This document shows positions 39,105 to 61,872 of a stretch of 64,000 bases of DNA, one piece after another; position 1 is the first letter of the stretch; every line of letters begins with the position of its first letter. Made by a program: the position numbers and the translations under genes. A model generated the notes under the pieces. The model did no database searches and was not told the origin of the DNA. It worked only from the letters and a program-made list of their open reading frames with translations. The DNA is from Candidatus Bathyarchaeia archaeon (GTDB lineage: Archaea > Thermoproteota > Bathyarchaeia > Bathyarchaeales > Bathyarchaeaceae): positions 421,362 to 485,361 of the forward strand of contig DATETJ010000002.1 of assembly GCA_035283685.1 (NCBI GenBank), given 5' to 3'.

Positions 39105-39569
39105 TCACAGCATCCTCGTGCAGTATATGTAAAACACTATCTCAGAAATGCCCATTCCCGCCGCCACACCGGCCAAGATTATGAACCAACTGTAGATGTC
39201 AAGGCTTCCCGCAGAAAGGAAAAGCAGGAATGGAAGCAAGATAATTGCGGCAAACGCGGCTACCAAGAGATAGAACTTTCTTCGACTCAGCGACTCTGCA
39301 GGGCTTGCTTGTTGATGTGGCCTTTGGACGTTGATAACTGGCCGTATCTTCAGGACAAACAATGCGACTGTTACGAGAGATGTTAACCCGAGAAAGATCA
39401 AAAAGAGGGTGGGTTCAGCCAAGAGCACTGCCGCCATGAAAAAAGCCAAAAACGTCGTGGCAATGTTCACGTATAACCTGCTTGTTTTGAACGGATACTT
39501 CTTCTCTTTGCTGATTCGTTCATCTTGATCCATCAATGGGTCCTCATTAGAACGTGTTGGCACTTCCAA
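39105..39569 (-). CDS. Integral membrane protein, unknown function
   Basis: 154 aa with 4 TM helices. It sits 4 nt upstream of the next gene. Confidence 0.5.
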   Translation of the reverse strand: MEVPTRSNEDPLMDQDERISKEKKYPFKTSRLYVNIATTFLAFFMAAVLLAEPTLFLIFLGLTSLVTVALFVLKIRPVINVQRPHQQASPAESLSRRKFYLLVAAFAAIILLPFLLFLSAGSLDIYSWFIILAGVAAGMGISEIVFYIYCTRML

Positions 39570-40068
39570 AAGTGGAGAGTTTGAATCTGCCCACGAGGGG
39601 GCCTTCGCAGAAGACGTCTATGAATGTAACCCAGTTTTTGTTTATTGTCGGGTCTAAGAGCCATTCTGCCTGTTCTGGTTCAACAAACAGGTTAAGAATA
39701 TTTATGTTAAGTCGTAACGTGTAGTTTGTGTTTGGATTTGAGAGGACTCGTAGCGGATTGGTTTGCGAGAAAGTGGCTCTAGTGGTTCCTGCATATGTCT
39801 CGTTTACATACACTTGTTGTTCAATAAATAAGACAGTGAACACAAACGAGGAAGTATTGTTGACAGTGATCTCTGTGCTCACTACTATGTGCGTCTCATC
39901 TACAAGTTCAACATCGAAGTCGAGAATGGACGTGGACAACGAACGAATTGCGAGTGAAACTTGGACATAGTGCGTTGACGAATAGGCAATCACAACCGCT
40001 GACAGTGCTGTAGCGATAATAAAAGCTACTGCAATTGCTTTCTGAGACCTGCTCGCCATCTCAATCAT
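39547..40068 (-). CDS. N-terminally anchored extracytoplasmic protein, unknown function (LEA-2/NDR1-like beta-sandwich is possible)
   Basis: 173 aa with a single N-terminal TM helix and then a beta-rich domain. It overlaps the next gene by 23 nt. Confidence 0.5.
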   Translation of the reverse strand: MIEMASRSQKAIAVAFIIATALSAVVIAYSSTHYVQVSLAIRSLSTSILDFDVELVDETHIVVSTEITVNNTSSFVFTVLFIEQQVYVNETYAGTTRATFSQTNPLRVLSNPNTNYTLRLNINILNLFVEPEQAEWLLDPTINKNWVTFIDVFCEGPLVGRFKLSTFGSANTF

Positions 40069-40098: not shown

Positions 40099-41127
40099 CT
40101 ACTTGCCGGTGCCATAGGTGTATTTGTGGCATGCCACGATTCTTTTTTCTTCAGTGGGAAGCAGCTTTGGTTCTTCTTTCTTGCAGCGGTCCCACGCGTA
40201 GGGGCATCTTGTGTGGAATCGGCATCCCGGGGGAGGATTAACAGCGCTTGGGACTTCGCCCTTAATCACAACCTCAGTTCGACGAGCTGTCGGATCTGGA
40301 ACTGGCACGGCTGCAATTAGGGCTTCTGTGTATGGGTGTTGGGGTTTTTGAATGACGTTTTCCGCAGGTCCTTGCTCCACAATCTGTCCTAAGTACATGA
40401 CTGCTATGCGGTTACACATGTATCTGGCCAAAGCGATGTCGTGTGTGATGTACAGAAAAGAGCAGTGGAACTTCTTCACAATGCCTAGCAGTAGTCGAGC
40501 AACTTCACTGCGTATTGATGCGTCAAGCATTGAAAGCGGTTCGTCAGCGACCATGAACTCTGGCTTCAGGACGAATGCTCTCGCAATTGCAATTCTTTGC
40601 CTCTGTCCGCCACTCAACTCGTGGGGAAATCGATAGATATATTCCTCGGGGGGAACTAGGTCCAGATCTTCGAGCACATTGACGACCCTCTCGTGGACTT
40701 CACTCTCGCTTTTTGCCACTCTCTGGATTCGCACTGGTTCAGAAACTATGTCAAAGATGCTCATTCGCGGATTTAGCGACTCGTAGGGATCTTGGAATAT
40801 TATCTGCATTTTGCGCCGCATCTTCCTCATTTCATCCGGCGTCATCGCAGTAACGTCTGTTCCCTTGAAGATAATCTTGCCATCGGTGGGTTCGATCAGC
40901 CTGAGCAACAGTCTGCCTGTAGTCGTCTTGCCGCAGCCACTCTCGCCTACCAAGCCAAAGACTTCCTCTTTTCCTAGGGAGAGGTTTACGTTCTCAACCG
41001 CATGAACATATGGAACAGATTTGGACATCAACGTCTTCATGAAACCCATCTTCAACTGAAAGTACTTCTTCAAGTTGTGTGCTTCTAGAATTGTGTCTTC
41101 ATTGTGTGTTTCGATTTTTTCTTTCAT
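40099..41127 (-). CDS. oppF: Oligopeptide/dipeptide ABC transporter ATP-binding protein (OppF-like)
   Basis: It has Walker [10 protein letters not shown], signature LSGGQRQR and Walker B MVADEP. The C-terminal oligopeptide domain is [12 protein letters not shown]. The start is taken at MKEKIETH (41127). Confidence 0.85.
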   Translation of the reverse strand: MKEKIETHNEDTILEAHNLKKYFQLKMGFMKTLMSKSVPYVHAVENVNLSLGKEEVFGLVGESGCGKTTTGRLLLRLIEPTDGKIIFKGTDVTAMTPDEMRKMRRKMQIIFQDPYESLNPRMSIFDIVSEPVRIQRVAKSESEVHERVVNVLEDLDLVPPEEYIYRFPHELSGGQRQRIAIARAFVLKPEFMVADEPLSMLDASIRSEVARLLLGIVKKFHCSFLYITHDIALARYMCNRIAVMYLGQIVEQGPAENVIQKPQHPYTEALIAAVPVPDPTARRTEVVIKGEVPSAVNPPPGCRFHTRCPYAWDRCKKEEPKLLPTEEKRIVACHKYTYGTGK

Positions 41128-41132
41128 GTTTT

Positions 41133-42065
41133 TCACTTTCCTACAAGGTGGCATGCTACGAGATGCTGTGAGCCGTCGACTTCGGTTACCTCTGGTTCTT
41201 TGCGTTTGCATATATCCATCGCGTAGGGGCATCTTGGGTGGAATCTGCATCCTGGTGGCGGGTTAAGCAAGTCTGGTGGAAAGCCAGGAATTGACTGCAG
41301 TTCTCTTTTAACGCCTAGAATGCTGGGAAAGGCACCAATCAGTTTCTGCGTGTACGGATGCAAGGGTTCTTTGTAGAGGGGCGCACTTTCACCGTACTCA
41401 GCGATTTTTCCTGCATACATAATTGCAACTTTGTTACAAGTGTCCGCGATCATCGACAAGTCATGTGAAATCAATATGAGTGAAAGGTCTAGCTTCTTTT
41501 GAAGCTCCTTCATGACTTTTAGCACCTGAGCCTCAATGATCACGTCAAGGGCTGTCGTTGGTTCGTCCGCGATAACAAGTGTCGGGTTACAGGCCAAAGC
41601 CATCGATATCATTGAGCGCTGCTTCATGCCTCCGCTCAGCTCGTGTGGATAGCGAGCGAATTTGGAGGCGCCTATTCCTACAAGGTCTAGTAAGCGCTCA
41701 GTTCTCTTTCTCGCTTCGTCTTTGCTTACATCTTCGTGGGCAAGTATTGGTTCAGCAATCTGACTCCCGATGCTCTTGTTGGGGTGAAGCGCGTTCATGG
41801 CTCCTTGGAAAACAACTGAGATTTTCTTCCACCGAATTTCTTTGTTGAATTTGTCTGGAGGCATTTTCAGGATTTCTTCGCCGCCAAATCGTATGTTGCC
41901 GCCGTAGATTTTTCCGTTCCATGGCAGAAGCTTCAAAATCGAGAGTGCAGCGCTGGTTTTGCCGCAGCCTGACTCTCCGGCTAATCCAATTGCGTCTCCT
42001 TTCTGGACTTCGAAGCTGACATCGTCTACTGCTTTAACTTCTCCTCTCATTGTGTGGAAATACAT
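41133..42065 (-). CDS. oppD: Oligopeptide/dipeptide ABC transporter ATP-binding protein (OppD-like)
   Basis: It has Walker [10 protein letters not shown], signature LSGGMKQR, Walker [11 protein letters not shown] and C-terminal [12 protein letters not shown]. The N-terminus may extend a few codons. Confidence 0.85.
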
Positions 42066-42097
42066 TCTCAGGTTGTTGACTTCTAAGAGTGCCAGTT

Positions 42098-43558
42098 CTA
42101 ACGTCTCCTTCTAAGTCGCGGGTTCACGATTTCGTCAATTGCGAATCCCATGAACACGAATGTCAAGCTCAACATAGTAATGGCAATTCCCGGCGGCACA
42201 AACCACCACCAGGCGCCGTTTTCGAATGCGCCGTGTCCGAATGCGTAGTTCAGCATTTTTCCCCATGTGGGGACTCGCGGATCGCCGAATCCAAGGAAGC
42301 TCAGCGCGGCTTCTGCGAGTACCGCTCCTGGAACGCTTAGCACTAGTGAAGCTAGGGCTACTGGAAAGATGTTGGGGACAAGATGTCGAGCCATAATATA
42401 GGGTTTGCTTGCTCCCGAAGCGAAAGCGGATTCTACAAAAGTTGTCTCTCGGAGGTAAAGAACTTGTGACCTAATTACTCTAGCCAAGCCGAGCCAGCCG
42501 AAGATTGCTATGAAGAGAACGATGTAGAAGATGTTTTTCCCAAACAGTCTAACTAGGGTTAGAAGTAATGGGAGTCCTGGAAGGCAGAGCAATACGTCCA
42601 CGATTCGCATGGTAACTTCGTCAACTGCTCCCCCCAAATATCCTGCCACTGTGCCAACAATGACGCCGATGGATGTCGAAATGGCTGCCGCCATTAGCCC
42701 AATAACCAGTGATATTCGCGATCCGTAGACGAGCTGTGAAAAAACGTCTGTGCCAAGATAGTCTGCACCTAATATGCCATGAATGAGCCCTGGGATGAAG
42801 AACTTGAATCTTGTGAGACTTACATCAGCCTTCATTGATTCAGAGTCTTCGGCAGGTCTCATGGCTACGCGGAAGGTAAGGCGGTAGAGACTTTTCGTTG
42901 GGTTTGAGAAGATTATGTGCGCGAGGTTTGTAGCTCCAACTTCTATGTACCCTATTTTCTTGAGTAACCAATAGTCATTTGAGTCGCCTTCCACGCCTAG
43001 ATTGATGTTCTGATCCGTATACGGTTCGAACCAGATTCGGGTGGAGGAGCCATTAAGTTCGTTCGTCAATATGAGTTCGGCTGACCACCACACATTTGAA
43101 AGATTCTGAACGCTCCAAGCGAATGAGGAAACGAATCTCATTGGAGGCACATCGTGCGGGTACTCGAAGGTTGTGGAGGCAGTGACTTCTATTGCTCTCG
43201 CATTTCTTGCGGGTATGCTAATCTGTGTCTCCACGTTTTTTCCGCCAGCTGTGTGAATTTCGGGTGGGCTCTCGCCTCCTGTGATGTTCCAGGAGGGGGT
43301 GATTTCCATGGTGTAGGGGTGATCTTGGTATTGTGGAAGGGCTTGCATGAAGCTTGGCATCGCATAGCTTTCAGCGACACGGGTTGATGATAGCGGATCG
43401 TATGGTGTCAGCCATGGAGAAAAGACTGCCATTATAATGTATCCGGCGAGAAGCAGCAGCCCTACGAAACCGATTCTGTTGTGGCTGAATTCATCCCAGA
43501 ATCCCCTTATTCGACGCGAATATATCTTTCGTGTATCTTCTGAAATCAAAGGTGACAC
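42098..43558 (-). CDS. oppC: ABC peptide transporter permease (OppC-like) with an extracytoplasmic insertion of about 200 aa
   Basis: The C-terminal half has the BPD-transporter permease core (EAA-like region ESAFASGASKPYIMARHLVPN). About 200 non-TM residues follow the first TM helix. Confidence 0.85.
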   Translation of the reverse strand: MSPLISEDTRKIYSRRIRGFWDEFSHNRIGFVGLLLLAGYIIMAVFSPWLTPYDPLSSTRVAESYAMPSFMQALPQYQDHPYTMEITPSWNITGGESPPEIHTAGGKNVETQISIPARNARAIEVTASTTFEYPHDVPPMRFVSSFAWSVQNLSNVWWSAELILTNELNGSSTRIWFEPYTDQNINLGVEGDSNDYWLLKKIGYIEVGATNLAHIIFSNPTKSLYRLTFRVAMRPAEDSESMKADVSLTRFKFFIPGLIHGILGADYLGTDVFSQLVYGSRISLVIGLMAAAISTSIGVIVGTVAGYLGGAVDEVTMRIVDVLLCLPGLPLLLTLVRLFGKNIFYIVLFIAIFGWLGLARVIRSQVLYLRETTFVESAFASGASKPYIMARHLVPNIFPVALASLVLSVPGAVLAEAALSFLGFGDPRVPTWGKMLNYAFGHGAFENGAWWWFVPPGIAITMLSLTFVFMGFAIDEIVNPRLRRRR

Positions 43559-43572
43559 TGATCATCTCTCCT

Positions 43573-44565
43573 TTATCTTCTGAATCCAACGCGTATTCTC
43601 GGGTCCAATATTCCGTACAGTATGTCTGCGGCAAGGTTGCAGATGATGGTAAGCACAGCGTATATGAAGAGCACTGCTTGGACAACTGGATAATCATCTG
43701 CTTGGAGAGCACTTATATACCAAGATCCGATTCCTGGCCACGTGAATATGTACTCGGTTATGATTGCTCCGGTCACTAAGCCTGGTATGGCGAGAGTGAT
43801 CATTGTGGCGATGGGTGGCAGCACGCTTCTGAAAGCATGTCGGTAGAGAACTGTTCGTTCACTTAGTCCTTTGGCTCGTGCTGTGAGCACATAATCTTGT
43901 GTGAGAGCGTCTATCATCAGGTTTCTGACGTACAGTGCGTATCCTCCGAAGCCTGCTAATATGAGTGTTAATGCGGGCATTGTCATGTGCCATGCAATGT
44001 CTGCCATGAGAGCTAAAGATTCAGTGGGAGCTGGAACGCTGACCATTCCACGAGGTGGGAACACTTGGATGCCGAACCACATCACGAAGAAGTAGGAAAA
44101 GAAGAGTAAAAATATCATTTGGATGAAGAATGTCGGCACTCCGTCTGCAAAGAGTCCGGCTGCCATTGAGACCATGTCCGTTTTGGATCCTCTTCTGGAT
44201 CCTGCGAGTATTCCCACGGGTGTGCCTAGCAGAATCGAGCCTATTAGCACTGTTCCCAGAAGTAGAAGCGTGTTTGGCAGTCGTAGGGCGAGGCCTTCGT
44301 TTATGGGTTCTCTTGTTTTGAATGAGAAGCCGAAGTTCCAGGTGAATACGCTCTGAATGTATAGACCGTACCGGGTCGTTAGAGTCTCATTCAGTCCGTA
44401 TTGGAGAAACAGTTGGTCTTTTTGTTCTTTTGTGAAGTTTGGATCAATGATGGTTCTGGTTGGGTCTCCTGCGTAGACGACTTGGAATATTACGAAAGTG
44501 AGTGTTGCGATGATGTAAAGTGTAACTAGTCCAATTGCAACTCTTTTTAGCAGATAACCTCTCAA
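43573..44565 (-). CDS. oppB: ABC peptide transporter permease (OppB-like)
   Basis: 330 aa. The N-terminus is MRGYLLKRV and the EAA motif region is LTARAKGLSERTVLYRHAFRS. Confidence 0.85.
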   Translation of the reverse strand: MRGYLLKRVAIGLVTLYIIATLTFVIFQVVYAGDPTRTIIDPNFTKEQKDQLFLQYGLNETLTTRYGLYIQSVFTWNFGFSFKTREPINEGLALRLPNTLLLLGTVLIGSILLGTPVGILAGSRRGSKTDMVSMAAGLFADGVPTFFIQMIFLLFFSYFFVMWFGIQVFPPRGMVSVPAPTESLALMADIAWHMTMPALTLILAGFGGYALYVRNLMIDALTQDYVLTARAKGLSERTVLYRHAFRSVLPPIATMITLAIPGLVTGAIITEYIFTWPGIGSWYISALQADDYPVVQAVLFIYAVLTIICNLAADILYGILDPRIRVGFRR

Positions 44566-44786: not shown

Positions 44787-46832
44787 ATGGACAATAGTAT
44801 GTTGAAGCGAGTATGCTTGACAGTGATTTGCATATCGATGCTCGCAGCAATGTTCTCCATTAGCCCCGCGTTTGCGCAACAGAGAGGTCCAAAACTAGAT
44901 CTCTATCGACTTAAGGTCACGAGGTCTCCGGCTGCTCAGTTGATTGAGATGACTACGGGTGCCAGTGAAGCGTGGGATGGTCTCATCCGACCCACTGACA
45001 TTGAAGAGATGGACCGCCAGGGTAAAGTTATCAGTTCTCGTGGTGGCTTCCACTACTGCCGTATCATCTTGAACTACAGGGTGCATCCACTTGACGATGC
45101 GAACTTCAGGCACGCCTTGTTCCATTTGGTGCCTAAAGACCGCATCATCGGCAACCTATTCAAGTACATCGTTGTGAAGGTTGACACTCCAGTGCCTCCA
45201 GCTCAAGCGTTGTGGTACAACCCCGCGGTTGACCCCCACGCCTACAGCCCTACAGAAGCAGAAGCAATTCTGGCTGCTGCAGGCTACCAGAAGATTGGAG
45301 GCGAGTGGAAGGACACGGATGGCTCAAACCTGCCTACTCTGCGCTTCTTCGTGCCGCTTGAAGTTGTGGCGCCTACGTCCTACACTATCGGTAGGATGGT
45401 GGTTGAGGAAGCTCAGGGCATCGGCTTGAACAACATTGACCTTCAACCAACTGACTTCGCCACGTACGTTGACAAGACTTTCAACCTGTGGGACTATGAG
45501 ATGTCGTGGGTTTGCCACGGTTTGGGCAGGTTCCCAACCCACTTGTTCTACCAGTTTAGTTCTGAAGAGAACTATCTGGGAAGCGGCAACCCTCACGGCA
45601 TAGTCTACCCAGCCCTGGATGCTAAGTTGTCCACTTTGTTGAGGAGCTTGAACCACGCGGACAAAGTTATTGCCGTGCGTGAGGCTCAGGTTCTCTTGAT
45701 GGGTGGATCAAGCAGCAGTCCAATGCCTCAAAATGTGCCGGCTACAGACCAAGCTTTGCCAACAGTTCCAATCTACTCTAGAAACTACTATGACATTCAA
45801 CAGCCCTACTTGCGCGGCGCCGTCAACATGTTCGGCTATGGCATTGCCAACGGCTGGACAATGTTGAACATTGAGAAAACCGCTGATCCTAACGGTCACG
45901 GAGCCAAAACCCTTGTGTGGATTGAGGACGAGTTCCCGGAGAGGTTGAACCCAACCTGGGCGTCAACGGTCTACGCGTGGGATTTCATGGAGAATTCATT
46001 TGACGGCTTGATGGCAACCAACCCATTCACTCACCGAGATGAGCCTTGGCTTGCCTCGAATGTAAGCGGATGGTCGTACGCGACTGAGCCGGGCGGCATG
46101 GCAGTAACCTTTAACATTAGGCTGAATGACCTGCACGGTTCACCAGTCCAATGGGCTGACGGTGATCCAGTTCAAGTGAGCGACATCAAGTTCTCGTGGG
46201 ACTTCCTCAAGAACAACACTATTCCAGCCTACTGGGGTGCTTTCAGGTTCTTCAAGAACGCCACTATCGTGGACGCGGACACTATTGTGGCTCACATGAC
46301 CACGACGAGCCAGTGGCTGGTCTACGATTTGGCTGGCACTGCTTACCTACTGCCGCCTCAAGTGTGGACTGTGGATCCACGTGATGGCTTGCCATGGGTT
46401 AACACCGCTGAGATAACAAGCTTTGACCCGTCTGCGCTGGCGTATCCTGATCCGGATGGTGGTGGACCGCTTCGTGCGCTTCCAAACCACTTGTTCGGGA
46501 CAGGCCCGTTCATACTGCAGCACTCAACCGCGTTCATGGCGACTAACGCTTACGGTGACCAGACTGCTAACCGCAACTACTGGTTAACTACGGCTGACAT
46601 CGATGCCATTATTGAGGACATGTTCTGGAGATCAGGTGACACCGTTGACAACGACGAAGTTGACATCACCGACCTAGACTTGATCGCCACATGGTTTGGC
46701 CAAAACGTGCCCCCAGCGCCTGTAAACGCTGACATCACCCGAGCTGCAGGTGGACCACCAGACACACTAGTAGACATCGACGACCTCGCAACAACTGGCA
46801 AATACTTCGGTGAAACCGAATCAGTGCCGTAA
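44787..46832 (+). CDS. ABC transporter substrate-binding protein (family 5, OppA/DppA-like) with C-terminal dockerin-like module
   Basis: 681 aa with a signal peptide (MLAAMFSISPAFA). The body is SBP_bac_5-like. The last 66 aa (nt 46632-46829) form two dockerin-type segments: GDTVDNDEVDITDLDLIATWFG and PPDTLVDIDDLATTGKYFG. Confidence 0.8.
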   Translation: MDNSMLKRVCLTVICISMLAAMFSISPAFAQQRGPKLDLYRLKVTRSPAAQLIEMTTGASEAWDGLIRPTDIEEMDRQGKVISSRGGFHYCRIILNYRVHPLDDANFRHALFHLVPKDRIIGNLFKYIVVKVDTPVPPAQALWYNPAVDPHAYSPTEAEAILAAAGYQKIGGEWKDTDGSNLPTLRFFVPLEVVAPTSYTIGRMVVEEAQGIGLNNIDLQPTDFATYVDKTFNLWDYEMSWVCHGLGRFPTHLFYQFSSEENYLGSGNPHGIVYPALDAKLSTLLRSLNHADKVIAVREAQVLLMGGSSSSPMPQNVPATDQALPTVPIYSRNYYDIQQPYLRGAVNMFGYGIANGWTMLNIEKTADPNGHGAKTLVWIEDEFPERLNPTWASTVYAWDFMENSFDGLMATNPFTHRDEPWLASNVSGWSYATEPGGMAVTFNIRLNDLHGSPVQWADGDPVQVSDIKFSWDFLKNNTIPAYWGAFRFFKNATIVDADTIVAHMTTTSQWLVYDLAGTAYLLPPQVWTVDPRDGLPWVNTAEITSFDPSALAYPDPDGGGPLRALPNHLFGTGPFILQHSTAFMATNAYGDQTANRNYWLTTADIDAIIEDMFWRSGDTVDNDEVDITDLDLIATWFGQNVPPAPVNADITRAAGGPPDTLVDIDDLATTGKYFGETESVP

Positions 46833-46849
46833 ACTTGGAGGTGAATAGA

Positions 46850-48256
46850 GTGAGAGGAAAAAGCATTTTGTGGTTGGCTCTTGCTGCGTTGCTGTTGGCT
46901 ATGCCTGCAGTTAACGTGCGGGCGCAGACCACAACTGTATATATAGATCCTCCATTGACCACTGGCCTAATGCCTGGCGACATCTTTGCGGTGAACCTGA
47001 TGGTGATGGGTGCTGTTGATCTGAAGTCATGGCAGGTTGAGTTGTCCTTCTCGAAGTACATGGCCACGCTAGCTGTCACCGACGTCATTGAGGGCGACTT
47101 CATGATGATTGGTGGCGATACCTTCATGGCTAAGTACGTGGATGCGTTCCACGGCTTGCTGAAGGTTGGTGTCACTATCCTCGGACAAGTCGGCGGCGTC
47201 TACGGTGATGGATGGCTAGCTACAATAATCTTCACTGTGCTAGAAGCAGGCGAAACTCCATTAGACCTACATGACACTATACTGTTGGACTCCATGGGCG
47301 TTGAGATGGCGCACGATGCAGTTGACGCCTATTATCTTGGACTCACTGCGGATATGTACAACGTGCCTGGCAGCAACCAGACAAGAGAAGGTGGCTGGAA
47401 GGCAGGAGACACCCGCAAGTTCAAGATGATAGTCCAAAACACAGGCTATGCACCACTCTATGTGCGTGCAAAGCACTCAACTGTGCGCGGCTCAGACAAC
47501 AAGGTGTTCAACCTGTACAGCGGCCAACACATGTACACAACAGTGCCTAGACCAACAACGTACTACAACGTGAGTGGCTACACACCCGCAGGCTTCTCTG
47601 ATTGGACAACAGTCGGTACAAGTCCATTCCTAGCCCCATGGGGACCAGCGGCAGGTGCTGGCGCGGACGGTAGCTACGTTCAAGCGAGCGACTACAGCCA
47701 GTTGACAGGCATAATTGACTTCCAGGACATCAGCTTGAACCCAGGAGACGTCATCCTGAGTGTAACGCTTGAAGCGTTCACAAAGGCAGACAGCACTGCA
47801 ATTGATATGGACGTCTACACGTATCCAGACTTTGCTTGGCTAGGTTCCTTGTGGGGTTCTGGAAGCTACGGCTGGAAGACTCAGAGATGGATAACAGGTC
47901 CAATTTCCGACTCTATGCCGTCGCTCAAGACCGCCGCAGGATTCAATAGCCTGAAGCTAGTGATTCACTACTGGACAGAAACTGGCGCTACGATGGGCAA
48001 CGCTTTCATGGAAGCGATCAGATTGAGAGTGGCTTTCACTGGAATTGATCCGTTGACTCCAGGCTTCTACACTATCATGCCAGGCGAACAGAAAGTCCTG
48101 CCAGCAGCGTTATGGGATCTATGGGCATTCGACGCAAACACCTACACAACAACTTCAACCCTTGAGTATCGATACAACTTCCCAGACCCACGATTCCCAA
48201 TGGTTTGGCAAACTGGTCAGCATACCAAAACGTTCACTTGGTGGGTCCGACCGTAA
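46850..48256 (+). CDS. Secreted cohesin-domain protein (class-1 cohesin + uncharacterised C-terminal module)
   Basis: GGAGGTG precedes the GTG at 46850 (the track ORF starts at 46835), and a signal peptide follows. The cohesin is at nt 46937-47341 (VYIDPP...KSWQVELSF...GDGWLATIIF). There is no TM anchor and no dockerin. Confidence 0.75.
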   Translation: MRGKSILWLALAALLLAMPAVNVRAQTTTVYIDPPLTTGLMPGDIFAVNLMVMGAVDLKSWQVELSFSKYMATLAVTDVIEGDFMMIGGDTFMAKYVDAFHGLLKVGVTILGQVGGVYGDGWLATIIFTVLEAGETPLDLHDTILLDSMGVEMAHDAVDAYYLGLTADMYNVPGSNQTREGGWKAGDTRKFKMIVQNTGYAPLYVRAKHSTVRGSDNKVFNLYSGQHMYTTVPRPTTYYNVSGYTPAGFSDWTTVGTSPFLAPWGPAAGAGADGSYVQASDYSQLTGIIDFQDISLNPGDVILSVTLEAFTKADSTAIDMDVYTYPDFAWLGSLWGSGSYGWKTQRWITGPISDSMPSLKTAAGFNSLKLVIHYWTETGATMGNAFMEAIRLRVAFTGIDPLTPGFYTIMPGEQKVLPAALWDLWAFDANTYTTTSTLEYRYNFPDPRFPMVWQTGQHTKTFTWWVRP

Positions 48257-48354: not shown

Positions 48355-50265
48355 GTGCTTCTGACGATGCTCGTTTCTTCGGTTTTGTTACTCGCAAATA
48401 TACATTCTGTGTCGCCCATTGTTTGGTCAAGCGAGAAACCGCTCCCAACTAACACGTCGTACTATGATGGATCTGCTTCGGTTACCCAGACATCGGATGG
48501 AAAAATTTGGGTAGTCTGGGACAAGGAGGTGCAGTCGCGCTGGTCTATTTTCTATACGACGTCGTCTGATTACGGCGCGACTTGGGCGCTTGAGCAAAAC
48601 CTCACCGCGGTTCCAAGTCAAGACTTTAACAAAGATCCGTCAATTGTTCAGCTGTCGAACGGAACAATAATAGTTGTGTGGGCAGCGCAGAAGAATCCGC
48701 CGCTTCTTCCCAATGATTTTGAAATGAGTGCATCGCCTAACGCGCTCACAATTCCTAGGGGAAGTTCAGGTTTTTCCAATATCACAGTCCATTCGCTGAA
48801 CGGCTTCAGTGACTTGGTGAGTTTGTCAACGAGGATTGGACCACCCACTCCACATATTACTACGGGTTTTAGCCCTCCTCAAGTGACGCCTCCGCCGAAC
48901 GGGAACGCTTATTCAGGTCTTACAATAAATGTTGGCGTGCAGACCCCTGTGGGCACGTACACTGTAACAGTGAGAGGCTACAACCAGGCGCTCGACGTAA
49001 CTCGAACCACGATTGTCACTGTGACTGTTCCTTCCACCTTAAGTTCACCTTCTTCGATGGTTAGCGACTTCTCGCCTGCGGCTGAGCCTACACAGTCTCC
49101 TTATGAACTTGTCTACAGAACCTCGTCAGATAATGGAACCACCTGGTCAGCTGAAAAGAAGCTTCCGCTTGACGATGCTTCTGGGGATAATTTGGCGCCT
49201 TCCATAATGCAGGCTGCTAATGGCTCTATTTGGCTTGTCTGGGTTTCTGGTCGGACGGGTAATTCCGAATTATATTATAAGACTTCGCCGGATGGGATTT
49301 CTTGGTCTAGTGATTTTCGGCTCACGTATAATGCGAGTGTGGATGGCAGCCCATCCATTGCGCAAATGCAAAATGGCAACATATGGGTTGTTTGGTCTAC
49401 GGACAGGTTTGGGTTAAACGAAGAGCTGATTTACAACGTTTACAATGGAACATCTTGGCTGGGTGAACAGCGGCTCACTAGCACCGTAGATTACATTGAC
49501 GTGTATCCCGCGATTCTTCAGGCATGGAATGGAACGATACGCGTATTCTGGACTATAATTGGTGTTCCAGGCGATGGCACAGGCGACATTTACTATGTGG
49601 AGTCAAATAACAATGGAACTTCGTGGTCAAGTCCGATTCCATTTACAACCGACACTCGGGAGGACCAGTGGGTTGCTGTGGCTGAGTCTGTGGACACGCG
49701 TATGTGGGTTGTGTGGACTTCGAATCGAACTGGTGGCTTTGACCTTTATTACAGAACTTCGCTTGTGCACAACTTGGCTGTCACTGTAGTTGATCCTTCG
49801 CCGCTCAGAGTCTACCAGAAAGAAAATGTGACGATAGATGTGACTGTGCGGAATTGGGGTGACTTTGGTGAATCCTTCACTTTGTCCTGTTACGCTAATA
49901 CTACCTTGGTATATTCTCGTCCAGTTACTTTAGCGTCTGGGGCTTGGACAACAGTGACTTTTGGATGGAATACGTCTGGTTTTGAGCGGGGCAACTACTA
50001 TGTGACCGCAGTGGCAAGCGTGGTCCTAGGTGAGATTTATGCTGGAGATAATTCTCTGACGCATTCAACTATTCGTGTGAAGCTTTTAGGTGACGTAGAT
50101 GACAGTGGGTTGGTCAACACGCGTGACATGTTTAATCTGGGAAAGGCTTTCGGATCTGTGCCTGGAAACCCTAATTGGAATGAAGAGGCAGACATGAACG
50201 GAGACAACGCAGTCAACACTGTTGATTTGTCGGAGTTAGTCGGCAACTTCGGCGCAACTGGCTAA
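48355..50265 (+). CDS. BNR/Asp-box repeat beta-propeller protein + Ig-like insert + CARDB + C-terminal dockerin
   Basis: The Asp-box motifs are SSDYGATW, SSDNGTTW, SPDGISW and SNNNGTSW. The CARDB region is HNLAVTVVDPSP...VTVRNWGD. The dockerin is at nt 50083-50262 (GDVDDSGLVNTRDMFNLGKAFG / ADMNGDNAVNTVDLSELVGNFG). Confidence 0.8.
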   Translation: MLLTMLVSSVLLLANIHSVSPIVWSSEKPLPTNTSYYDGSASVTQTSDGKIWVVWDKEVQSRWSIFYTTSSDYGATWALEQNLTAVPSQDFNKDPSIVQLSNGTIIVVWAAQKNPPLLPNDFEMSASPNALTIPRGSSGFSNITVHSLNGFSDLVSLSTRIGPPTPHITTGFSPPQVTPPPNGNAYSGLTINVGVQTPVGTYTVTVRGYNQALDVTRTTIVTVTVPSTLSSPSSMVSDFSPAAEPTQSPYELVYRTSSDNGTTWSAEKKLPLDDASGDNLAPSIMQAANGSIWLVWVSGRTGNSELYYKTSPDGISWSSDFRLTYNASVDGSPSIAQMQNGNIWVVWSTDRFGLNEELIYNVYNGTSWLGEQRLTSTVDYIDVYPAILQAWNGTIRVFWTIIGVPGDGTGDIYYVESNNNGTSWSSPIPFTTDTREDQWVAVAESVDTRMWVVWTSNRTGGFDLYYRTSLVHNLAVTVVDPSPLRVYQKENVTIDVTVRNWGDFGESFTLSCYANTTLVYSRPVTLASGAWTTVTFGWNTSGFERGNYYVTAVASVVLGEIYAGDNSLTHSTIRVKLLGDVDDSGLVNTRDMFNLGKAFGSVPGNPNWNEEADMNGDNAVNTVDLSELVGNFGATG

Positions 50266-50353
50266 CTGAGACCTGTCTCCTTCAATTATGGATAAGTTTA
50301 AATGTTTTATCTTCTCTGTTTTCCTACGAATCCTATTCACGCCTAAAGAGGAA

Positions 50354-51634
50354 ATGAGGATGCCGAAGCCTAAACATGTGTTGCTTTTGTTGAGTTTGTT
50401 TGTTTTGAGTCTTTCAGCTTTGAGTTTGGTCCCTTCGTCTGTGGAGCAGGTGAAGCCGCTTGTTTATGTTGATCCGACTCCTATTGATTTTGAGCCTGGC
50501 GAAAGTTTCAATATAAATATCACAATCAAGTCTGCTGTGAACGTGTTTGCTTGGGAGTTCAAGTTGTTGTGGAATGCGTCAGTTCTTAATTACACTGGAG
50601 CTGTTGAAGGCGACTTTCTTAAGGGTTTTCAAAACGCGTCCACTTATTGGGTTAACCCGGTGCTGACTCAAAACGTCAGTGACAAATATCGTGTTCTTCT
50701 TGGGGTTACTCGTTTAGGCGCTGATATTCCTGGGGTTAGCGGAAGTGGTAAGCTTGCTATGATAAGTTTTGATGTTTTGACCAAGGGCGAAACAACCTTA
50801 GATTTGGTGGAAACCAAATTGAGAGACAGCGTTCCAAATCCAATTGATCACGATTCGCGGGATGGTTTGTTCTCGAATACAGCTGGTTTTCCGCGACCTG
50901 ATTTTTCGTTCACTCCTGCTAAAGCGAATATTAATGAGACCATTACGTTTGATGCCAGCAATTCGACTGATGTTGATCAGGGCGTAGATCATTACATTGT
51001 TCTTTATTCTTGGAATTTCAGCGATGGCACTCCCGTCGTGGAGGAGGCTGGCGCCATTACTTATCATGCTTATTCTGAGGGTGGCACTTATGACGTGACT
51101 TTGACTGTTATGGACAATGATCGCTGGAACAGGTCGATTACTAAGGCGGTGAAGGTTCGGTTCACGTACGATGTCAAGGTCGCCGAGGTTAAAGCTGCGG
51201 TTGAGTCTGCTACAATTGGCGACAAAGTGGCTATTACGGTGAAGGTTAGCAATGAGGGTTCAGGCGATTTGACGAGTGTGAGTGTCACGGCTTATTATAG
51301 TGTAGGGTTGCAGTTGGGTACTGCTTTGGGTCCAGCGCAGACTACGTCGTTAGTTGTTGATCAGACTAAGACTTTGTCTTTCGAGTGGGACACTTCAGGT
51401 GTGGCTAAGGGCAGCTACCGAATTAACGCGGCGGTTGCTCCTGTTGCAGGTGAGCCTGAACAAGCTCAGGAGGATAATACGAGCCGGGGTGGCACGGTTA
51501 CGTTGGTTGAGGTTCAGGAGACTCCTTGGCTCTTGTACGGTGGCATTATCGCCGGAGTTGCCGTGGTGGCTGTTGTCGGTTTCCTGTTTATGAGGCGCCG
51601 AGGCGGCGGTGGCAAGCAAACTCCAATTCGCTAG
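50354..51634 (+). CDS. Membrane-anchored cohesin (class 2) - PKD - CARDB surface protein
   Basis: The start is taken at MRMPKPKHVLLLL (the track ORF starts at 50288). The cohesin is at nt 50459-50875 (NVFAWEFKLLW...GSGKLAMISF). The PKD motif is FDASNST...YSWNFSDGT and the CARDB motif is VTVKVSNEGSGD. A C-terminal TM helix plus RRRGGGG follows. Confidence 0.8.
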   Translation: MRMPKPKHVLLLLSLFVLSLSALSLVPSSVEQVKPLVYVDPTPIDFEPGESFNINITIKSAVNVFAWEFKLLWNASVLNYTGAVEGDFLKGFQNASTYWVNPVLTQNVSDKYRVLLGVTRLGADIPGVSGSGKLAMISFDVLTKGETTLDLVETKLRDSVPNPIDHDSRDGLFSNTAGFPRPDFSFTPAKANINETITFDASNSTDVDQGVDHYIVLYSWNFSDGTPVVEEAGAITYHAYSEGGTYDVTLTVMDNDRWNRSITKAVKVRFTYDVKVAEVKAAVESATIGDKVAITVKVSNEGSGDLTSVSVTAYYSVGLQLGTALGPAQTTSLVVDQTKTLSFEWDTSGVAKGSYRINAAVAPVAGEPEQAQEDNTSRGGTVTLVEVQETPWLLYGGIIAGVAVVAVVGFLFMRRRGGGGKQTPIR

Positions 51635-51848
51635 ACCCGGAAACTTCTAGCATCTCTTTTTTCTTGTGGTCTTTTTGGAAATCTGTTTCTTAGTAGAGGC
51701 AAGTTCTGGCGTTTGATGCGCCTTTTTCCATTATAGTGTGGTTACAATAATCGTCTAGTATTGTGTTTAGTAGATGTGTTCAGCAACTTTTAAATTGTGT
51801 CTTGCATTTAGTTTCACATGTTCAACGTTGGAGAGAGAAGGCGAGGAC

Positions 51849-54761: not shown

Positions 54762-54894
54762 GGCGGGCATTGAACTCGTAGACGCTTTCTCCCATCTTTC
54801 TGTATGCTCTGGCTTATAGACGACAATTACACAAACGATTTATATTTGACTGCAGTTTTATTACGTGTAGTTGGCAGTAGAGGGAGAGAAAGAG

Positions 54895-56076
54895 ATGAAA
54901 CGTGTACTAGCAATAGCACTATTTATGATTATAGGTTTCAGCGCAGTTTTCAGCATGGTAAAAATAACTTCAGCAACAACAATCATAACTTTGAGTATTG
55001 ACCCCCTGAAAGTTCCTGGAAAAGTCGGAAGAAACATCACATTCGACATCGCCATCAGCGGAGTCAACTCATCCGTCCTTGACTTGTGGGCGTGGGAACT
55101 CAAACTCAACTGGACAGACATTGACTTCAACTACGTCAGCGCAGTGCAAGGTTCGTTCCTTGCACAAAGCGGCACCACCTTCTGGGTCTCACCAATTAGG
55201 AGCGGCACAGGAGGCAACGAAACTTTGACTTTGGCTTGCACGCGTACGGGAGCCGGATCAGGCTCCTTGGGTAGCGGTGTTCTAGCCACCATAACCCTAT
55301 ATGTGGTCGGTGGAACATCAGGATCCAAATTTGACCTTTACTCCATCAAGCTGCGGAACAGCCTCCTTAATCCAATTGAGCCGCCAACATACGATGTAAG
55401 CGTGCTCGATCAAGTGGGCGAGTTTGCACGACCAAGAAGCTATGATCTCGAACCGGTGTTTGGCGAGGTTGACATTTATGATCTAGCGGTCGTAGGAGTG
55501 AACTACGGAACAAACGTTATCCGCGTCACAAAGATTGCCACACAATGGGCAGTAGCAGGTGGAGCTGGATGGCTCAATCCAGAGTTTGTGGGATCTTCTG
55601 ATGACACTCGGGCATCCGAAACGACTCTCAACGATGCACATAGATGGACTAACTTCGGCTTCAACACAACATCTTGGACGGGAGTGAGTAAAGTCGAAGT
55701 GGGGCTGGAGAGAATGGTTGACAGCAGCTTCAGATTGATAACCGTTGCAATGTCCAACGACAATGGCGGAACTTGGAGCGCCACGACGTTTACTCACAAC
55801 GCCTCTGACCAATTTGACACTCTCGTCTGGGTCGATGTAACCACAGCATACGCTTGGACCAAAGCAATGGTGAATAACATCGCGGTCAGACTGACCTATG
55901 CTTCGGCTACAGGAACAACATTCCGTCTTGACTACTTGGCTATTAGGGTCACTCCGTCTCCAGTGCTTTTGCCGCCAGAGGTATTTGATCCAGAAGCGGA
56001 TGTAGACAACGACCTTAACGTTGACATTGATGACTTGGTCAGAGTGGCGACCAATTATGGGGAGTACGAACTATAA
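54895..56076 (+). CDS. Cohesin + split-dockerin protein (putative adaptor)
   Basis: The start is taken at MKRVLAIALF (the track ORF starts at 54871). The cohesin is at nt 54982-55425 (LWAWELKLNW...GSGVLATITL). The dockerin half-sites are at nt 55441-55512 (GEVDIYDLAVVGVNYG) and 55978-56073 (DVDNDLNVDIDDLVRVATNYG). They are separated by about 155 aa. Confidence 0.75.
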   Translation: MKRVLAIALFMIIGFSAVFSMVKITSATTIITLSIDPLKVPGKVGRNITFDIAISGVNSSVLDLWAWELKLNWTDIDFNYVSAVQGSFLAQSGTTFWVSPIRSGTGGNETLTLACTRTGAGSGSLGSGVLATITLYVVGGTSGSKFDLYSIKLRNSLLNPIEPPTYDVSVLDQVGEFARPRSYDLEPVFGEVDIYDLAVVGVNYGTNVIRVTKIATQWAVAGGAGWLNPEFVGSSDDTRASETTLNDAHRWTNFGFNTTSWTGVSKVEVGLERMVDSSFRLITVAMSNDNGGTWSATTFTHNASDQFDTLVWVDVTTAYAWTKAMVNNIAVRLTYASATGTTFRLDYLAIRVTPSPVLLPPEVFDPEADVDNDLNVDIDDLVRVATNYGEYEL

Positions 56077-61716: not shown

Positions 61717-61872
61717 TGGTCAGCCTTCAGCCTACCATAATTCACTGTGGATTCCGCGGGTATTATTCTTAGCGACGCAAGAGATCGTCATCGCTAGGCT
61801 GGCTTCCGATGGCTGTTTATAGATTTGTTTAAATGGTTTCTCTCGAAAGCAATATTTTTGGAGGTTGCAACA

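What the first reader, a model, noticed from the sequence alone, without database searches (positions are those of the whole stretch)
46632..46829. An ABC substrate-binding protein that carries a dockerin instead of a lipid or TM anchor
Archaeal and Gram-positive SBPs are normally tethered by a lipobox or a TM helix. This OppA-like protein has an N-terminal signal peptide, and I saw no C-terminal TM helix. Instead it ends in two dockerin-type segments. The first is GDTVDNDEVDITDLDLIATWFG, which fits a 12-residue EF-hand loop with D/N at positions 1, 5, 9 and 12 and a hydrophobic residue at position 8. The second is GGPPDTLVDIDDLATTGKYFG. This implies non-covalent docking of the transporter's binding protein onto a cohesin. 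The cohesin gene starts within about 2-17 nt downstream (46850-48256). The second loop is degenerate (Gly at position 1), so Ca binding may be asymmetric.
Basis: partly seen in the sequence, partly recalled or inferred. Interest (0 to 1): 0.7.

Follow-up and report, generated by a model that had tools for sequence, protein, structure and literature searches.

The report
Archaeal transporter binding protein with dockerin
A secreted nutrient-binding protein of an ABC importer in a Bathyarchaeia archaeon ends in a real but divergent dockerin instead of a membrane anchor. It is therefore probably held at the cell surface by plugging into a cohesin protein encoded next door, an arrangement already noted in passing for methane-oxidising archaea.

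Summary
The last 66 residues of the 681-aa binding protein (44787-46832) are a genuine, divergent dockerin.

- **Identity.** Pfam misses it. A profile of its 11 closest relatives hits only dockerins in the PDB. AlphaFold gives pLDDT 95, and Foldseek's top 12 hits are all dockerins (2y3n_B, 1.5 Å).
- **Family trait.** Distant relatives carry a canonical dockerin in the same alignment columns.
- **No other anchor.** The protein has a cleavable-looking signal peptide, no lipobox and no other hydrophobic helix.
- **Dockerin or TM, never both.** Among 169 family proteins, 139 end in a dockerin, 17 in a TM helix, 0 in both.
- **Cohesin partner.** A cohesin gene follows in 12 related loci. It is fused in frame in at least eight others and absent next to TM-anchored relatives.
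Loop 2 starts at D649 and carries a conserved 6-residue insertion, so it is not "Gly at position 1". The window holds seven cohesin modules, not eight.
- **Extra finding.** The whole binding-protein family is circularly permuted.

Binding itself is untested. Dockerin-bearing OppA/NikA-type binding proteins were already noted in ANME archaea (PMC9012536), so this is a new variant of a known kind.

The parts
44787..46832 (+). Gene for the 681-aa secreted, circularly permuted SBP_bac_5 (OppA/DppA/NikA-fold) binding protein with a C-terminal dockerin. It is 100% identical to a 'Candidatus Bathyarchaeia archaeon' ABC substrate-binding protein.
   Evidence: SBP_bac_5, 107 bits, cut-off 32.4; P0001; AF2 pLDDT 92.6; Foldseek hits to DppA, NikA and OppA.
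44787..44876 (+). Signal peptide (aa 1-30: n-region KR, 17-residue h-region, c-region SPAFA followed by QQRGP). No lipobox.
   Evidence: only hydrophobic window; no [LVI][ASTVI][GAS]C. The AxA-(Q)RGP pattern is conserved in homologues. AF2 shows helix 3-22 followed by a low-confidence stretch at 24-29. Cleavage is inferred.
44883..45872 (+). First part of the permuted fold (aa 33-362). It corresponds to residues ~200-470 of canonical cluster-C binding proteins.
   Evidence: query 22-168 aligns to 8upi_A 200-347; query 43-304 aligns to 3m8u 219-467.
45873..46586 (+). Second part of the permuted fold (aa 363-600). It corresponds to the canonical N-terminal ~220 residues.
   Evidence: query 363-481 aligns to 8upi_A 2-109; query 566-611 aligns to 3m8u 178-219. 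In one search the de-permuted construct aligns in one stretch across the artificial junction.
46587..46631 (+). Connecting helix (aa 601-615, ...TADIDAIIEDMFWR) that joins the core to the dockerin with no flexible linker. F613 is invariant in the family.
   Evidence: helix 602-614, pLDDT ~96; invariant F613, G617.
46632..46829 (+). Divergent dockerin module (aa 616-681).
   Evidence: Not detected by Pfam Dockerin_1.
46638..46673 (+). Dockerin Ca-loop 1, DTVDNDEVDITD (D618-D629). Ligand-type residues sit at positions 1, 5, 9 and 12. Position 3 is Val and position 6 is Asp instead of Gly.
   Evidence: The same columns read DVNRDGYIDVFD in canonical relatives.
46731..46784 (+). Dockerin Ca-loop 2, D649-I-T-[RAAGGP]-P-D-T-L-V-D-I-D-D666. 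Ligand-type residues sit at positions 1, 3, 5, 9 and 12, with a 6-residue insertion after position 3.
   Evidence: a 5-6 residue insertion in 36 of 67 relatives, none in 26. In one search, segment 2 plus the C-terminus is more conserved than segment 1.
46850..48256 (+). Downstream 'Coh-X' gene (alternative start TTG 46835). It encodes a signal peptide, one cohesin (about 46925-47347) and a ~300-aa conserved domain X of unknown fold. It has no TM helix.
   Evidence: Pfam Cohesin only 12.2 bits; 61% identical to the cohesin of ORF 51774; E 2.7e-19 to the Pfam-positive cohesin of ORF 50288.
48355..50265 (+). BNR-propeller / CARDB protein with a canonical C-terminal dockerin (about 50086-50247).
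   Evidence: (Dockerin_1, E 3.7e-8).
50288..51634 (+). Small anchor protein: cohesin (about 50453-50884), PKD, CARDB, then a C-terminal TM helix with a basic tail.
   Evidence: C-terminal Kyte-Doolittle score 2.46.
51774..54761 (+). Large anchor protein (995 aa): an N-terminal cohesin (about 51951-52373) of the same type as the Coh-X cohesin, Ig-like/PKD domains, then a C-terminal TM helix with a basic tail.
   Evidence: 61% identity; Kyte-Doolittle score 2.95.
40099..44565 (-). Divergently transcribed OppBCDF-type importer genes: OppB 43573-44565, OppC 42098-43558 (with a ~240-aa extracytoplasmic insertion), OppD 41133-42065, OppF 40099-41250 (true start probably internal).
   Evidence: The arrangement is conserved in about 18 related loci.

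Best explanation
The C-terminal 66 residues are a functional, divergent dockerin mounted rigidly on a Sec-secreted, circularly permuted OppA/DppA/NikA-fold binding protein of a Bathyarchaeia archaeon. After signal-peptide cleavage the protein has no covalent membrane anchor.

The dockerin most likely binds, with Ca2+, to a cohesin of the type found in two places: the co-transcribed downstream protein Coh-X, and the N-terminus of the 995-aa protein that ends in a TM helix. That would hold the binding protein at the cell surface next to its OppBCDF importer. It would make it part of a cohesin-dockerin assembly that also recruits a BNR-propeller-dockerin protein.

Shown here:
- dockerin homology and predicted fold;
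- absence of any other anchor;
- mutual exclusivity of dockerin and TM tail within the family;
- conserved adjacency to, or in-frame fusion with, the cohesin gene;
- conserved adjacency to oppBCDF.

Inferred:
- signal-peptide cleavage;
- physical cohesin binding;
- which cohesin is the partner;
- Ca2+ dependence;
- that tethering is the purpose.
For: **Dockerin identity**
- Column-by-column alignment of the tail with canonical dockerins in 31-36%-identical relatives.
- PDB profile search returns only dockerins.
- HMM from distant relatives scores the tail 35.4 bits, level with bona fide dockerins.
- AF2 pLDDT 95.1; Foldseek top 12 hits all dockerins; 2y3n_B at rmsd 1.5 Å, TM-score 0.82 (target-normalised).
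- The tail is strongly conserved within its clade: invariant D618, D629, D649, D659, D665, D666 and LAT.

**No other anchor**
-.

**Dockerin substitutes for an anchor**
- Of 169 family proteins of at least 550 aa, 139 have only a dockerin, 17 have only a C-terminal TM helix with a basic tail, none has both, and 13 have neither. Fisher p = 1.3e-15, uncorrected for phylogeny.

**Cohesin link**
- Coh-X lies immediately downstream in 12 loci besides the window.
- In-frame SBP-Doc-Coh-X fusions that lack the second signal peptide occur in L003, L009, L010, L007 and L013 and in proteins P0013, P0016 and P0027.
- SBP-Doc-Coh-Doc fusions occur in L011, L020 and L035.
- The five loci of TM-anchored relatives contain no cohesin or dockerin, and in four of them ABC transporter genes lie next to the binding-protein gene (the fifth contig is too short to tell).

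**Membrane connection**
- The Coh-X cohesin is 57-61% identical to the cohesin of the large TM-anchored protein in the window, L002, L008 and L033.

**Transport role**
- oppBCDF lies divergently upstream in the window and in about 18 loci.
Against: - Pfam Dockerin_1 does not detect the tail.
- Loop 1 lacks the position-3 ligand, and loop 2 carries a 6-residue insertion, so Ca2+ binding is uncertain.
- No binding test or co-folding was possible.
- Coh-X itself has no TM helix in any locus. Docking to Coh-X alone would therefore not explain retention at the surface.
- In the fusion proteins the dockerin and cohesin share one chain, which raises the possibility of other partners.
- Several distant relatives (L001, L004, L022, L027, L031) are not next to ABC genes.
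- The exclusivity statistic is not corrected for phylogeny.
Confidence: 0.7

Rival explanations
1. The SBP-like protein is mainly a ligand-capturing subunit of an extracellular, cellulosome-like complex, playing the role a carbohydrate-binding module plays in cellulosomes. It would not be the dedicated receptor of the neighbouring ABC importer. On this view the dockerin serves complex assembly, not tethering for transport.
For: - The order SBP-Doc, Coh-X, BNR-Doc, Coh-anchor, Coh-anchor is conserved even where no ABC genes are adjacent (L001).
- L004, L022, L027 and L031 lack adjacent opp genes.
- Fusions exist with a BNR propeller (L027) and with Coh-X.
Against: - oppBCDF is divergently adjacent in the window and about 18 loci, including distant clades at 30-34% identity.
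- TM-anchored family members sit in classical SBP-oppBCDF operons.
- The two roles are not mutually exclusive.
Confidence: 0.15
2. The N-terminal hydrophobic segment is not cleaved and acts as a signal anchor. The protein would already be membrane-bound, and the dockerin would recruit other cohesin proteins such as Coh-X to it, rather than tethering it.
For: - Cleavage is only inferred. The h-region is 17 residues long with a Kyte-Doolittle score of 2.1.
- Coh-X lacks any anchor of its own, so something must retain it.
Against: - A conserved small-x-small site lies directly before the conserved (Q)RGP start of the mature domain across the family.
- Relatives with an equally good N-terminal signal still carry a C-terminal TM anchor. 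That anchor would be redundant if the N-terminus already anchored the protein.
- AF2 shows a low-confidence linker straight after the helix.
Confidence: 0.1
3. The tail is a decayed dockerin that no longer binds a cohesin. It would be kept only as a Ca2+-binding or structural cap stabilising the new C-terminus created by the circular permutation.
For: - Pfam misses it.
- Loop 1 has lost a ligand and loop 2 has an insertion.
- The module is attached without a flexible linker.
Against: - Helix 3 and the C-terminal segment are strongly conserved: column identity 0.81-0.89 among the 11 closest relatives.
- The insertion variant is old and conserved (36 of 67 relatives).
- Coupling to a cohesin gene, in-frame fusions and exclusivity with TM anchors all persist.
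- TM-anchored relatives are permuted too and manage without this cap.
Confidence: 0.05

Closest known systems
Dockerin-bearing periplasmic substrate-binding proteins of ANME archaea (Chadwick et al. [quoted passage not shown]
   Same: The domain logic is the same: an archaeal ABC-transporter binding protein of the NikA/OppA type carrying a dockerin, in genomes rich in cohesin proteins.
   Different: - The ANME cases were found by domain annotation and described in one sentence, with no partner, synteny or anchoring argument.
- The lineage differs (Halobacteriota rather than Bathyarchaeia).
- I did not test whether the ANME proteins are homologous to this permuted family.
- Here the dockerin is too divergent for Pfam.
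Type II dockerins with solved complexes: Bacteroides cellulosolvens 2Y3N chain B and Clostridium thermocellum CipA X-Doc 2B59 chain B
   Same: - Best sequence-profile and fold matches.
- Two-segment, three-helix module.
- The CipA dockerin also has Val at loop-1 position 3 (GDIVKDNSINLLD in the alignment).
   Different: - Those are bacterial cellulosome components that link scaffoldins to cell-wall anchors.
- They have no 6-residue insertion in loop 2 and are preceded by an X module or a linker.
- Here the dockerin sits directly on a binding-protein core.
Archaeal OppA-type binding proteins anchored by a C-terminal TM helix, the classical archaeal solution (general background from my own knowledge); in-family examples are P0180, P0138, P0165 and P0207
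   Same: Same permuted fold family, same N-terminal signal peptide, and adjacency to oppBCDF genes.
   Different: They end in a hydrophobic helix plus a basic tail, have no dockerin and have no neighbouring cohesin gene.
Treponema pallidum Tp0684 (MglB-2), a glucose-binding protein with a circularly permuted topology (PMC4990184)
   Same: A natural circular permutation of an ABC-transporter binding protein.
   Different: It belongs to a different structural cluster (sugar-binding, MglB type), is a bacterial lipoprotein and has no dockerin. I read only the listing, not the paper.
Non-cellulosomal cohesin-dockerin pairs of Archaeoglobus fulgidus (Bayer 1999 and Haimovitz 2008, as cited in PMC9012536)
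   Same: Archaeal cohesin-dockerin pairs unrelated to cellulose degradation, reported there to bind specifically.
   Different: Different carrier proteins. No link to a transporter has been reported.

Membership tests
Dockerin module (Pfam PF00404 Dockerin_1; type I-III dockerins) | A module of about 60-70 aa made of two duplicated segments, each a 12-residue EF-hand-like loop followed by a helix | tested here: met
   The two segments align column by column with canonical GDVNRDGxIDxxDL...ADLNxDGxVDxxDL tails of relatives. AF2 places helices at 627-635 and 664-672, with a short helix in the linker.
Dockerin module (Pfam PF00404 Dockerin_1; type I-III dockerins) | Recognition by the curated Pfam Dockerin_1 model (an operational detection criterion, not a biological property) | tested here: not met
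   No hit at E<=10 for the last 66 or 76 aa. Relatives with the tail in the same columns do carry precomputed PF00404 hits (P0044, P0049, P0052, P0053, P0058, P0065, P0067).
Dockerin module (Pfam PF00404 Dockerin_1; type I-III dockerins) | Sequence-profile homology to experimentally solved dockerins | tested here: met
   A profile of 11 close tails gives 2y3n_B at E 3.9e-4 over positions 2-69, and all eight listed hits are dockerins. An HMM of distant canonical tails scores the window tail 35.4 bits.
Dockerin module (Pfam PF00404 Dockerin_1; type I-III dockerins) | Dockerin three-dimensional fold | tested here: met
   AF2 pLDDT 95.1, pTM 0.83. Foldseek against the PDB: ranks 1-12 are all dockerins, and 2y3n_B aligns at rmsd 1.5 Å over 65 columns with target-normalised TM-score 0.82. 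This is a prediction, not a solved structure.
Dockerin module (Pfam PF00404 Dockerin_1; type I-III dockerins) | Ca2+-ligand residues at loop positions 1, 3, 5, 9 and 12 in both loops | tested here: inconclusive
   Loop 1 has 4 of 5 (Val at position 3). Loop 2 has 5 of 5 but with a 6-residue insertion between positions 3 and 4. Metal binding cannot be computed here.
Dockerin module (Pfam PF00404 Dockerin_1; type I-III dockerins) | Specific, usually Ca2+-dependent, binding to a cohesin | not testable with these tools
   Only indirect support: adjacency to and in-frame fusion with a cohesin gene, and exclusivity with TM anchors.
Cluster-C ABC substrate-binding proteins (Pfam SBP_bac_5; OppA/DppA/NikA) | Significant match to SBP_bac_5 and the cluster-C fold | tested here: met
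   107.1 bits against a cut-off of 32.4. Foldseek E about 1e-15 to DppA, NikA, OppA and chitin- or manno-oligosaccharide binding proteins.
Cluster-C ABC substrate-binding proteins (Pfam SBP_bac_5; OppA/DppA/NikA) | Canonical N-to-C order of the fold's segments | tested here: not met
   The canonical residues ~200-470 come first and ~1-220 second. A de-permuted construct aligns in one stretch through the artificial junction with better E-values. All 118 representatives with both halves detectable share this order. Foldseek aligns only about 310-365 columns, with target-normalised TM-score about 0.5.
Cluster-C ABC substrate-binding proteins (Pfam SBP_bac_5; OppA/DppA/NikA) | Genomic association with OppBCDF-type permease and ATPase genes | tested here: met
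   Divergent oppB, oppC, oppD and oppF lie at 40099-44565. The same arrangement occurs in about 18 related loci.
Cluster-C ABC substrate-binding proteins (Pfam SBP_bac_5; OppA/DppA/NikA) | Ligand binding and delivery to the permease | not testable with these tools
   No assay was possible. The ligand class (peptide, oligosaccharide or metal chelate) could not be resolved from the fold hits.
Covalently or TM-anchored archaeal/Gram-positive binding proteins | A lipobox Cys after the signal peptide, or a C-terminal TM helix | tested here: not met
   No [LVI][ASTVI][GAS]C motif. Cys10 and Cys15 lie inside the h-region and are not conserved. The best 19-residue Kyte-Doolittle window after residue 60 scores 1.09, and 0.57 within the last 150 aa. 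The method is crude (hydropathy only).
Cohesin (Pfam PF00963), for the proposed partner ORF 46850-48256 | Homology to cohesin modules | tested here: met
   The Pfam score is below threshold (12.2 bits against 24.1). However, BLASTP gives E 2.7e-19 to the Pfam-positive cohesin of ORF 50288 and 61% identity to that of ORF 51774. A window-derived cohesin HMM also hits it, but that HMM was built from an alignment that included this module, so the hit is not independent evidence.

The most novel reading that the evidence does not exclude
The conserved cluster would encode a cohesin-dockerin-assembled surface 'uptake complex' specific to Bathyarchaeia. The cluster is oppFDCB, then divergently SBP-Doc, Coh-X, BNR-propeller-Doc, a small TM-anchored cohesin protein and a large TM-anchored cohesin protein.

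In this reading, a rigidly mounted, circularly permuted binding protein is positioned over its ABC importer by a scaffold. The unknown X domain of Coh-X and the ~240-aa ectodomain inserted in OppC would be parts of the docking site. A dockerin-bearing propeller enzyme would be held alongside, so that polymer processing and uptake are physically coupled.

It would be the first ABC importer whose receptor is recruited by a cohesin-dockerin bond, and the natural SBP-Doc-Coh-X fusions would be its covalent version.
Probability: 0.3. Interest if true: 0.8.

Novelty: new variant of a known kind. Interest (0 to 1): 0.6.

Why it matters
Cells without an outer membrane must stop their ABC-transporter binding proteins from drifting away. 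Textbook solutions are a lipid anchor, a TM helix or fusion to the permease. This family offers a fourth solution, a non-covalent cohesin-dockerin plug. It also supplies a natural control, because sister proteins use a TM helix instead and never both.

That makes a long-standing vague question concretely testable: what are the many non-cellulosomal cohesins and dockerins of archaea for? The candidate partners are defined, since there are seven cohesins in one locus.

Bathyarchaeia are among the most abundant uncultured sediment archaea, so how they capture organic substrates matters for carbon cycling.

The family-wide circular permutation of an OppA-type fold is also of independent interest for the evolution and engineering of binding proteins.

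Tried and rejected
- **Pfam on the tail.** Dockerin_1 on the last 66 and 76 aa gave no hit even at E<=10. I rejected this as evidence of absence, because the family alignment, PDB profile search and fold search all agree it is a dockerin.
- **Species-representative genomes.** The scan gave only two loci, one of them a weak bacterial hit, so it was uninformative. The metagenome scan gave 40 loci and was used instead.
- **Domain X of Coh-X.** It has no Pfam, NCBIfam or PDB-profile match, so the retention mechanism of Coh-X stays open.
- **AFDB fold search for the tail.** The library was not available.
- **Co-folding the dockerin with cohesins.** Folding a natural fusion (P0016, aa ~600-880) would have been the better second job.
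- **Peer et al. 2009 (PMC3035643).** This survey of non-cellulosomal dockerins is not held in the library.
- **Other anchoring signals.** I considered and rejected a cryptic lipobox (the Cys residues lie inside the h-region and are not conserved) and PGF/PEF-type sorting signals (none present).
'Gly at position 1' is rejected by the family alignment.
- **Literature on Bathyarchaeia with cohesin or dockerin.** The searches found nothing specific.
Full report
**What is at the coordinates.** ORF 44787-46832 (+) encodes a 681-aa protein, and 46632-46829 encodes its last 66 residues (S616-P681). The protein is 100% identical to a database entry named 'ABC transporter substrate-binding protein [Candidatus Bathyarchaeia archaeon]' (P0001). 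Pfam finds SBP_bac_5 at 107 bits against a cut-off of 32.4. Pfam finds no Dockerin_1 in the tail, even at E<=10. The neighbouring ORF 48355-50265 scores 3.7e-8 for Dockerin_1 in the same call.

**Is the tail a dockerin?** Yes, by four independent lines.
- *Family alignment.* Sixty-nine full-length homologues at 31-72% identity nearly all carry a tail in the same alignment columns. In the distant ones it is a textbook dockerin (GDVNRDGYIDVFDL...ADLNQDGVVDARDL), several with precomputed PF00404 hits.
- *Profile against solved structures.* A profile built only from the 11 closest tails, none of them Pfam-positive, returns only dockerins from 177,635 PDB sequences. The best is 2y3n_B at E 3.9e-4, aligned end to end.
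- *HMM from distant relatives.* An HMM built only from the distant canonical tails scores the window tail 35.4 bits. The two Pfam-positive dockerins in the window score 36.4 and 37.6 bits.
- *Predicted fold.* AlphaFold2 on a 49-sequence tail alignment gives pLDDT 95.1 and pTM 0.83. Foldseek ranks dockerins 1-12, and 2y3n_B aligns at rmsd 1.5 Å over 65 columns with target-normalised TM-score 0.82.

**Loop anatomy and a correction.**
- Loop 1 is DTVDNDEVDITD. Ligand-type residues sit at positions 1, 5, 9 and 12, and position 3 is Val. The solved CipA type II dockerin also reads GDIVKDNSINLLD in the alignment.
- Loop 2 does not begin at a Gly. It is D649-I-T-[RAAGGP]-P-D-T-L-V-D-I-D-D666, so all five ligand-type positions are occupied, with a 6-residue insertion after position 3.
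- A 5-6-residue insertion occurs in 36 of 67 relatives, and 26 have none.
- Segment 2 and the C-terminal ETESVP are more conserved than segment 1: column identity 0.81 and 0.89 against 0.62 among the 11 closest relatives. This hints at a single, asymmetric binding face. That last point is inference.
- The dockerin follows a confident helix (602-614) with no Pro/Thr linker, and F613 and G617 are invariant. It therefore appears rigidly mounted on the core.

**Is there another anchor?**
- The only hydrophobic stretch is the N-terminal signal peptide. The best 19-residue Kyte-Doolittle window scores 2.11 at residue 9, the best after residue 60 scores 1.09, and the best in the last 150 aa scores 0.57.
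- No lipobox pattern exists. Cys10 and Cys15 lie inside the h-region and are not conserved. No PGF/PEF motif is present.
- A small-x-small site (AFA|QQ) directly precedes the conserved (Q)RGP start of the mature domain across the family. Cleavage is likely but inferred.

**The strongest comparative result.** An exhaustive phmmer search of 1.84 billion representative proteins found 1,236 relatives at E<=1e-3 and 89 at E<=1e-30.
- Among 169 family proteins of at least 550 aa, 139 have a dockerin and no C-terminal TM helix. Seventeen end in a TM helix with a basic tail and have no dockerin. None has both, and 13 have neither.
- Fisher p is 1.3e-15, not corrected for phylogeny.
- Five loci of TM-anchored relatives (38.5 kb) contain no cohesin or dockerin. 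In four of them ABC transporter genes adjoin the binding-protein gene: a permease gene follows in the same orientation in L048 and L051, L049 holds a complete SBP-oppBCDF operon, and L050 has oppBCDF divergently upstream. The fifth contig is too short to tell.
- So dockerin and TM anchor are alternative C-terminal appendages of one family.

**Context.**
- The downstream gene has a TTG start at 46835 or, more likely, a GTG at 46850 preceded by GGAGGTGA at 46837-46844.
- It encodes a signal peptide, a cohesin and a ~300-aa conserved domain X. Pfam scores the cohesin only 12.2 bits. BLASTP nevertheless gives E 2.7e-19 to the Pfam-positive cohesin of ORF 50288 and 61% identity to that of ORF 51774.
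- Domain X has no match anywhere I searched, and the protein has no TM helix.
- The window holds seven cohesin modules in six ORFs: 28593-31391 (two), 46835, 50288, 51774, 54871 and 56093.
- It holds three full dockerins: this one, ORF 48355 and ORF 56093.

**Synteny across 46 related loci.**
- Every complete binding protein carries the dockerin.
- Coh-X follows immediately in 12 loci.
- It is fused in frame, without its own signal peptide, in L003, L009, L010, L007 and L013 and in proteins P0013, P0016 and P0027.
- SBP-Doc-Coh-Doc fusions occur in L011, L020 and L035.
- oppBCDF lies divergently upstream in about 18 loci.
- The order oppFDCB, then SBP-Doc, Coh-X, BNR-Doc, small cohesin anchor and large cohesin anchor, recurs down to 30-34% identity (L001, L018, L024, L026).
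- All complete small and large cohesin proteins end in a TM helix with a basic tail.
- In the window's clade, the Coh-X cohesin is 57-61% identical to that of the large anchor and only 32-37% identical to that of the small anchor.

**Mechanism proposed.** After secretion and signal-peptide cleavage, the binding protein is retained at the surface through its dockerin. The partner would be a Coh-X-type cohesin. The copy on the 995-aa TM-anchored protein provides a route to the membrane. Coh-X may act as an adaptor through its unknown X domain.

The BNR-propeller-dockerin protein probably occupies the other cohesin type, since its gene directly precedes that of the small anchor. The result would be a surface assembly next to OppBCDF.

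Homology, fold, lack of another anchor, exclusivity, synteny and fusions are shown here. Binding, partner choice, Ca2+ dependence and purpose are inferred.

**Circular permutation (outside the original finding).**
- Residues 22-168 and 43-304 align to canonical positions ~200-470. Residues 363-481 and 566-611 align to canonical positions ~1-220.
- A de-permuted construct aligns to 3m8u in a single stretch across the artificial junction, and E improves from 3.3e-9 to 7e-12. For DppA the change is from 2e-7 to 1.4e-10.
- All 118 representatives with both halves detectable have the permuted order, including the TM-anchored ones.
- Foldseek on the confident full-length model (pLDDT 92.6, pTM 0.88) finds DppA, NikA and OppA at E about 1e-15. 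It aligns only ~310-365 columns, with target-normalised TM-score about 0.5, as expected for a sequential aligner on a permuted fold.
- A natural permuted binding protein is known in another structural cluster: T. pallidum MglB-2 (PMC4990184). I found no report for the OppA cluster, but the literature search was limited.

**Comparison with what is known.**
- Chadwick et al. [quoted passage not shown] NikA/OppA ... TroA'. The architecture is therefore already on record for archaea, as a domain-annotation remark without follow-up.
- Searches for Bathyarchaeota or Bathyarchaeia together with dockerin or cohesin found nothing specific.
- This instance is therefore a new variant. It has a Pfam-invisible dockerin with a conserved loop insertion, sits on a permuted binding-protein family, has defined candidate partners and comes with a natural TM-anchored control group.

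**Verdict.** Novelty is moderate because of the ANME precedent. Interest is 0.6, mainly because the locus makes the function of archaeal non-cellulosomal cohesin-dockerin pairs directly testable.

Noticed in passing
window 44787-46586 (whole binding-protein core): The OppA/DppA/NikA-type fold is circularly permuted: canonical residues ~200-470 come first and ~1-220 second. All 118 representative relatives with both halves detectable share this order, so it is a family-wide trait and not an assembly artefact.
   Followed up: yes
window 42098-43558 (-), OppC permease: About 240 residues lie between the OppC_N TM helix (aa 17-54) and the BPD_transp_1 core (aa 297-483), where ordinary OppC proteins are ~300 aa in total. 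This large extracytoplasmic insertion is conserved (476-502 aa) in loci of dockerin-bearing relatives. The OppC beside one TM-anchored relative (L049) is only 307 aa. The insertion could be part of the docking site for the binding protein or for Coh-X.
   Followed up: partly
window 47348-48253 (domain X of ORF 46850-48256): A ~300-aa domain follows the cohesin. It is conserved in all Coh-X homologues and in the SBP-Doc-Coh-X fusions. It has no Pfam, NCBIfam or PDB-profile match and no TM helix.
   Followed up: partly
proteins P0013, P0016, P0027; loci L003, L007, L009, L010, L013, L011, L020, L035: These are natural in-frame fusions: binding protein-dockerin-cohesin-X, or binding protein-dockerin-cohesin-dockerin. 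They lack the second signal peptide and occur in at least three different architectures. They put a dockerin and a cohesin ~15-40 residues apart on one chain, which raises the question of cis binding versus head-to-tail polymerisation.
   Followed up: partly
window 54871-56076 (+): This 401-aa ORF has no Pfam hit, but it has a clear cohesin (aa 42-175, E 4e-20 with the window cohesin HMM) and a weak half-dockerin-like segment at its C-terminus (aa 371-398, 13.9 bits). A homologue in L002 has the same layout.
   Followed up: partly
window 28593-31391 (-): A 932-aa protein with two cohesin modules (aa 55-194 and 287-427) and several PKD domains. It is the only multi-cohesin, scaffoldin-like protein in the window, and its cohesins are of the ORF 50288 type (47% identity).
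   Followed up: partly
window 61825-63372 (+); also L003 1771-3360: A Peptidase_C25 (gingipain-like) gene lies near the cluster here and in a related locus. This fits extracellular protein degradation feeding an oligopeptide importer. No dockerin was detected on it.
   Followed up: no
window 34559-36886 (-) and 59722-61716 (-): Two large beta-helix/NosD proteins with PKD or Ig-like domains flank the region. Similar genes sit beside the opp genes in L002 and L003, together with three small conserved ORFs (compare window 39105-40068).
   Followed up: no
window 19524-21632 (-), 22445-24676 (-), 24714-26564 (+): A multicopper oxidase and two aldehyde:ferredoxin oxidoreductase genes lie upstream. 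They appear unrelated to the finding.
   Followed up: no
locus L027 5875-9438: One relative is a single 1,188-aa protein with a BNR propeller fused in front of the permuted binding protein and dockerin. This links the two dockerin-bearing components of the cluster covalently.
   Followed up: no
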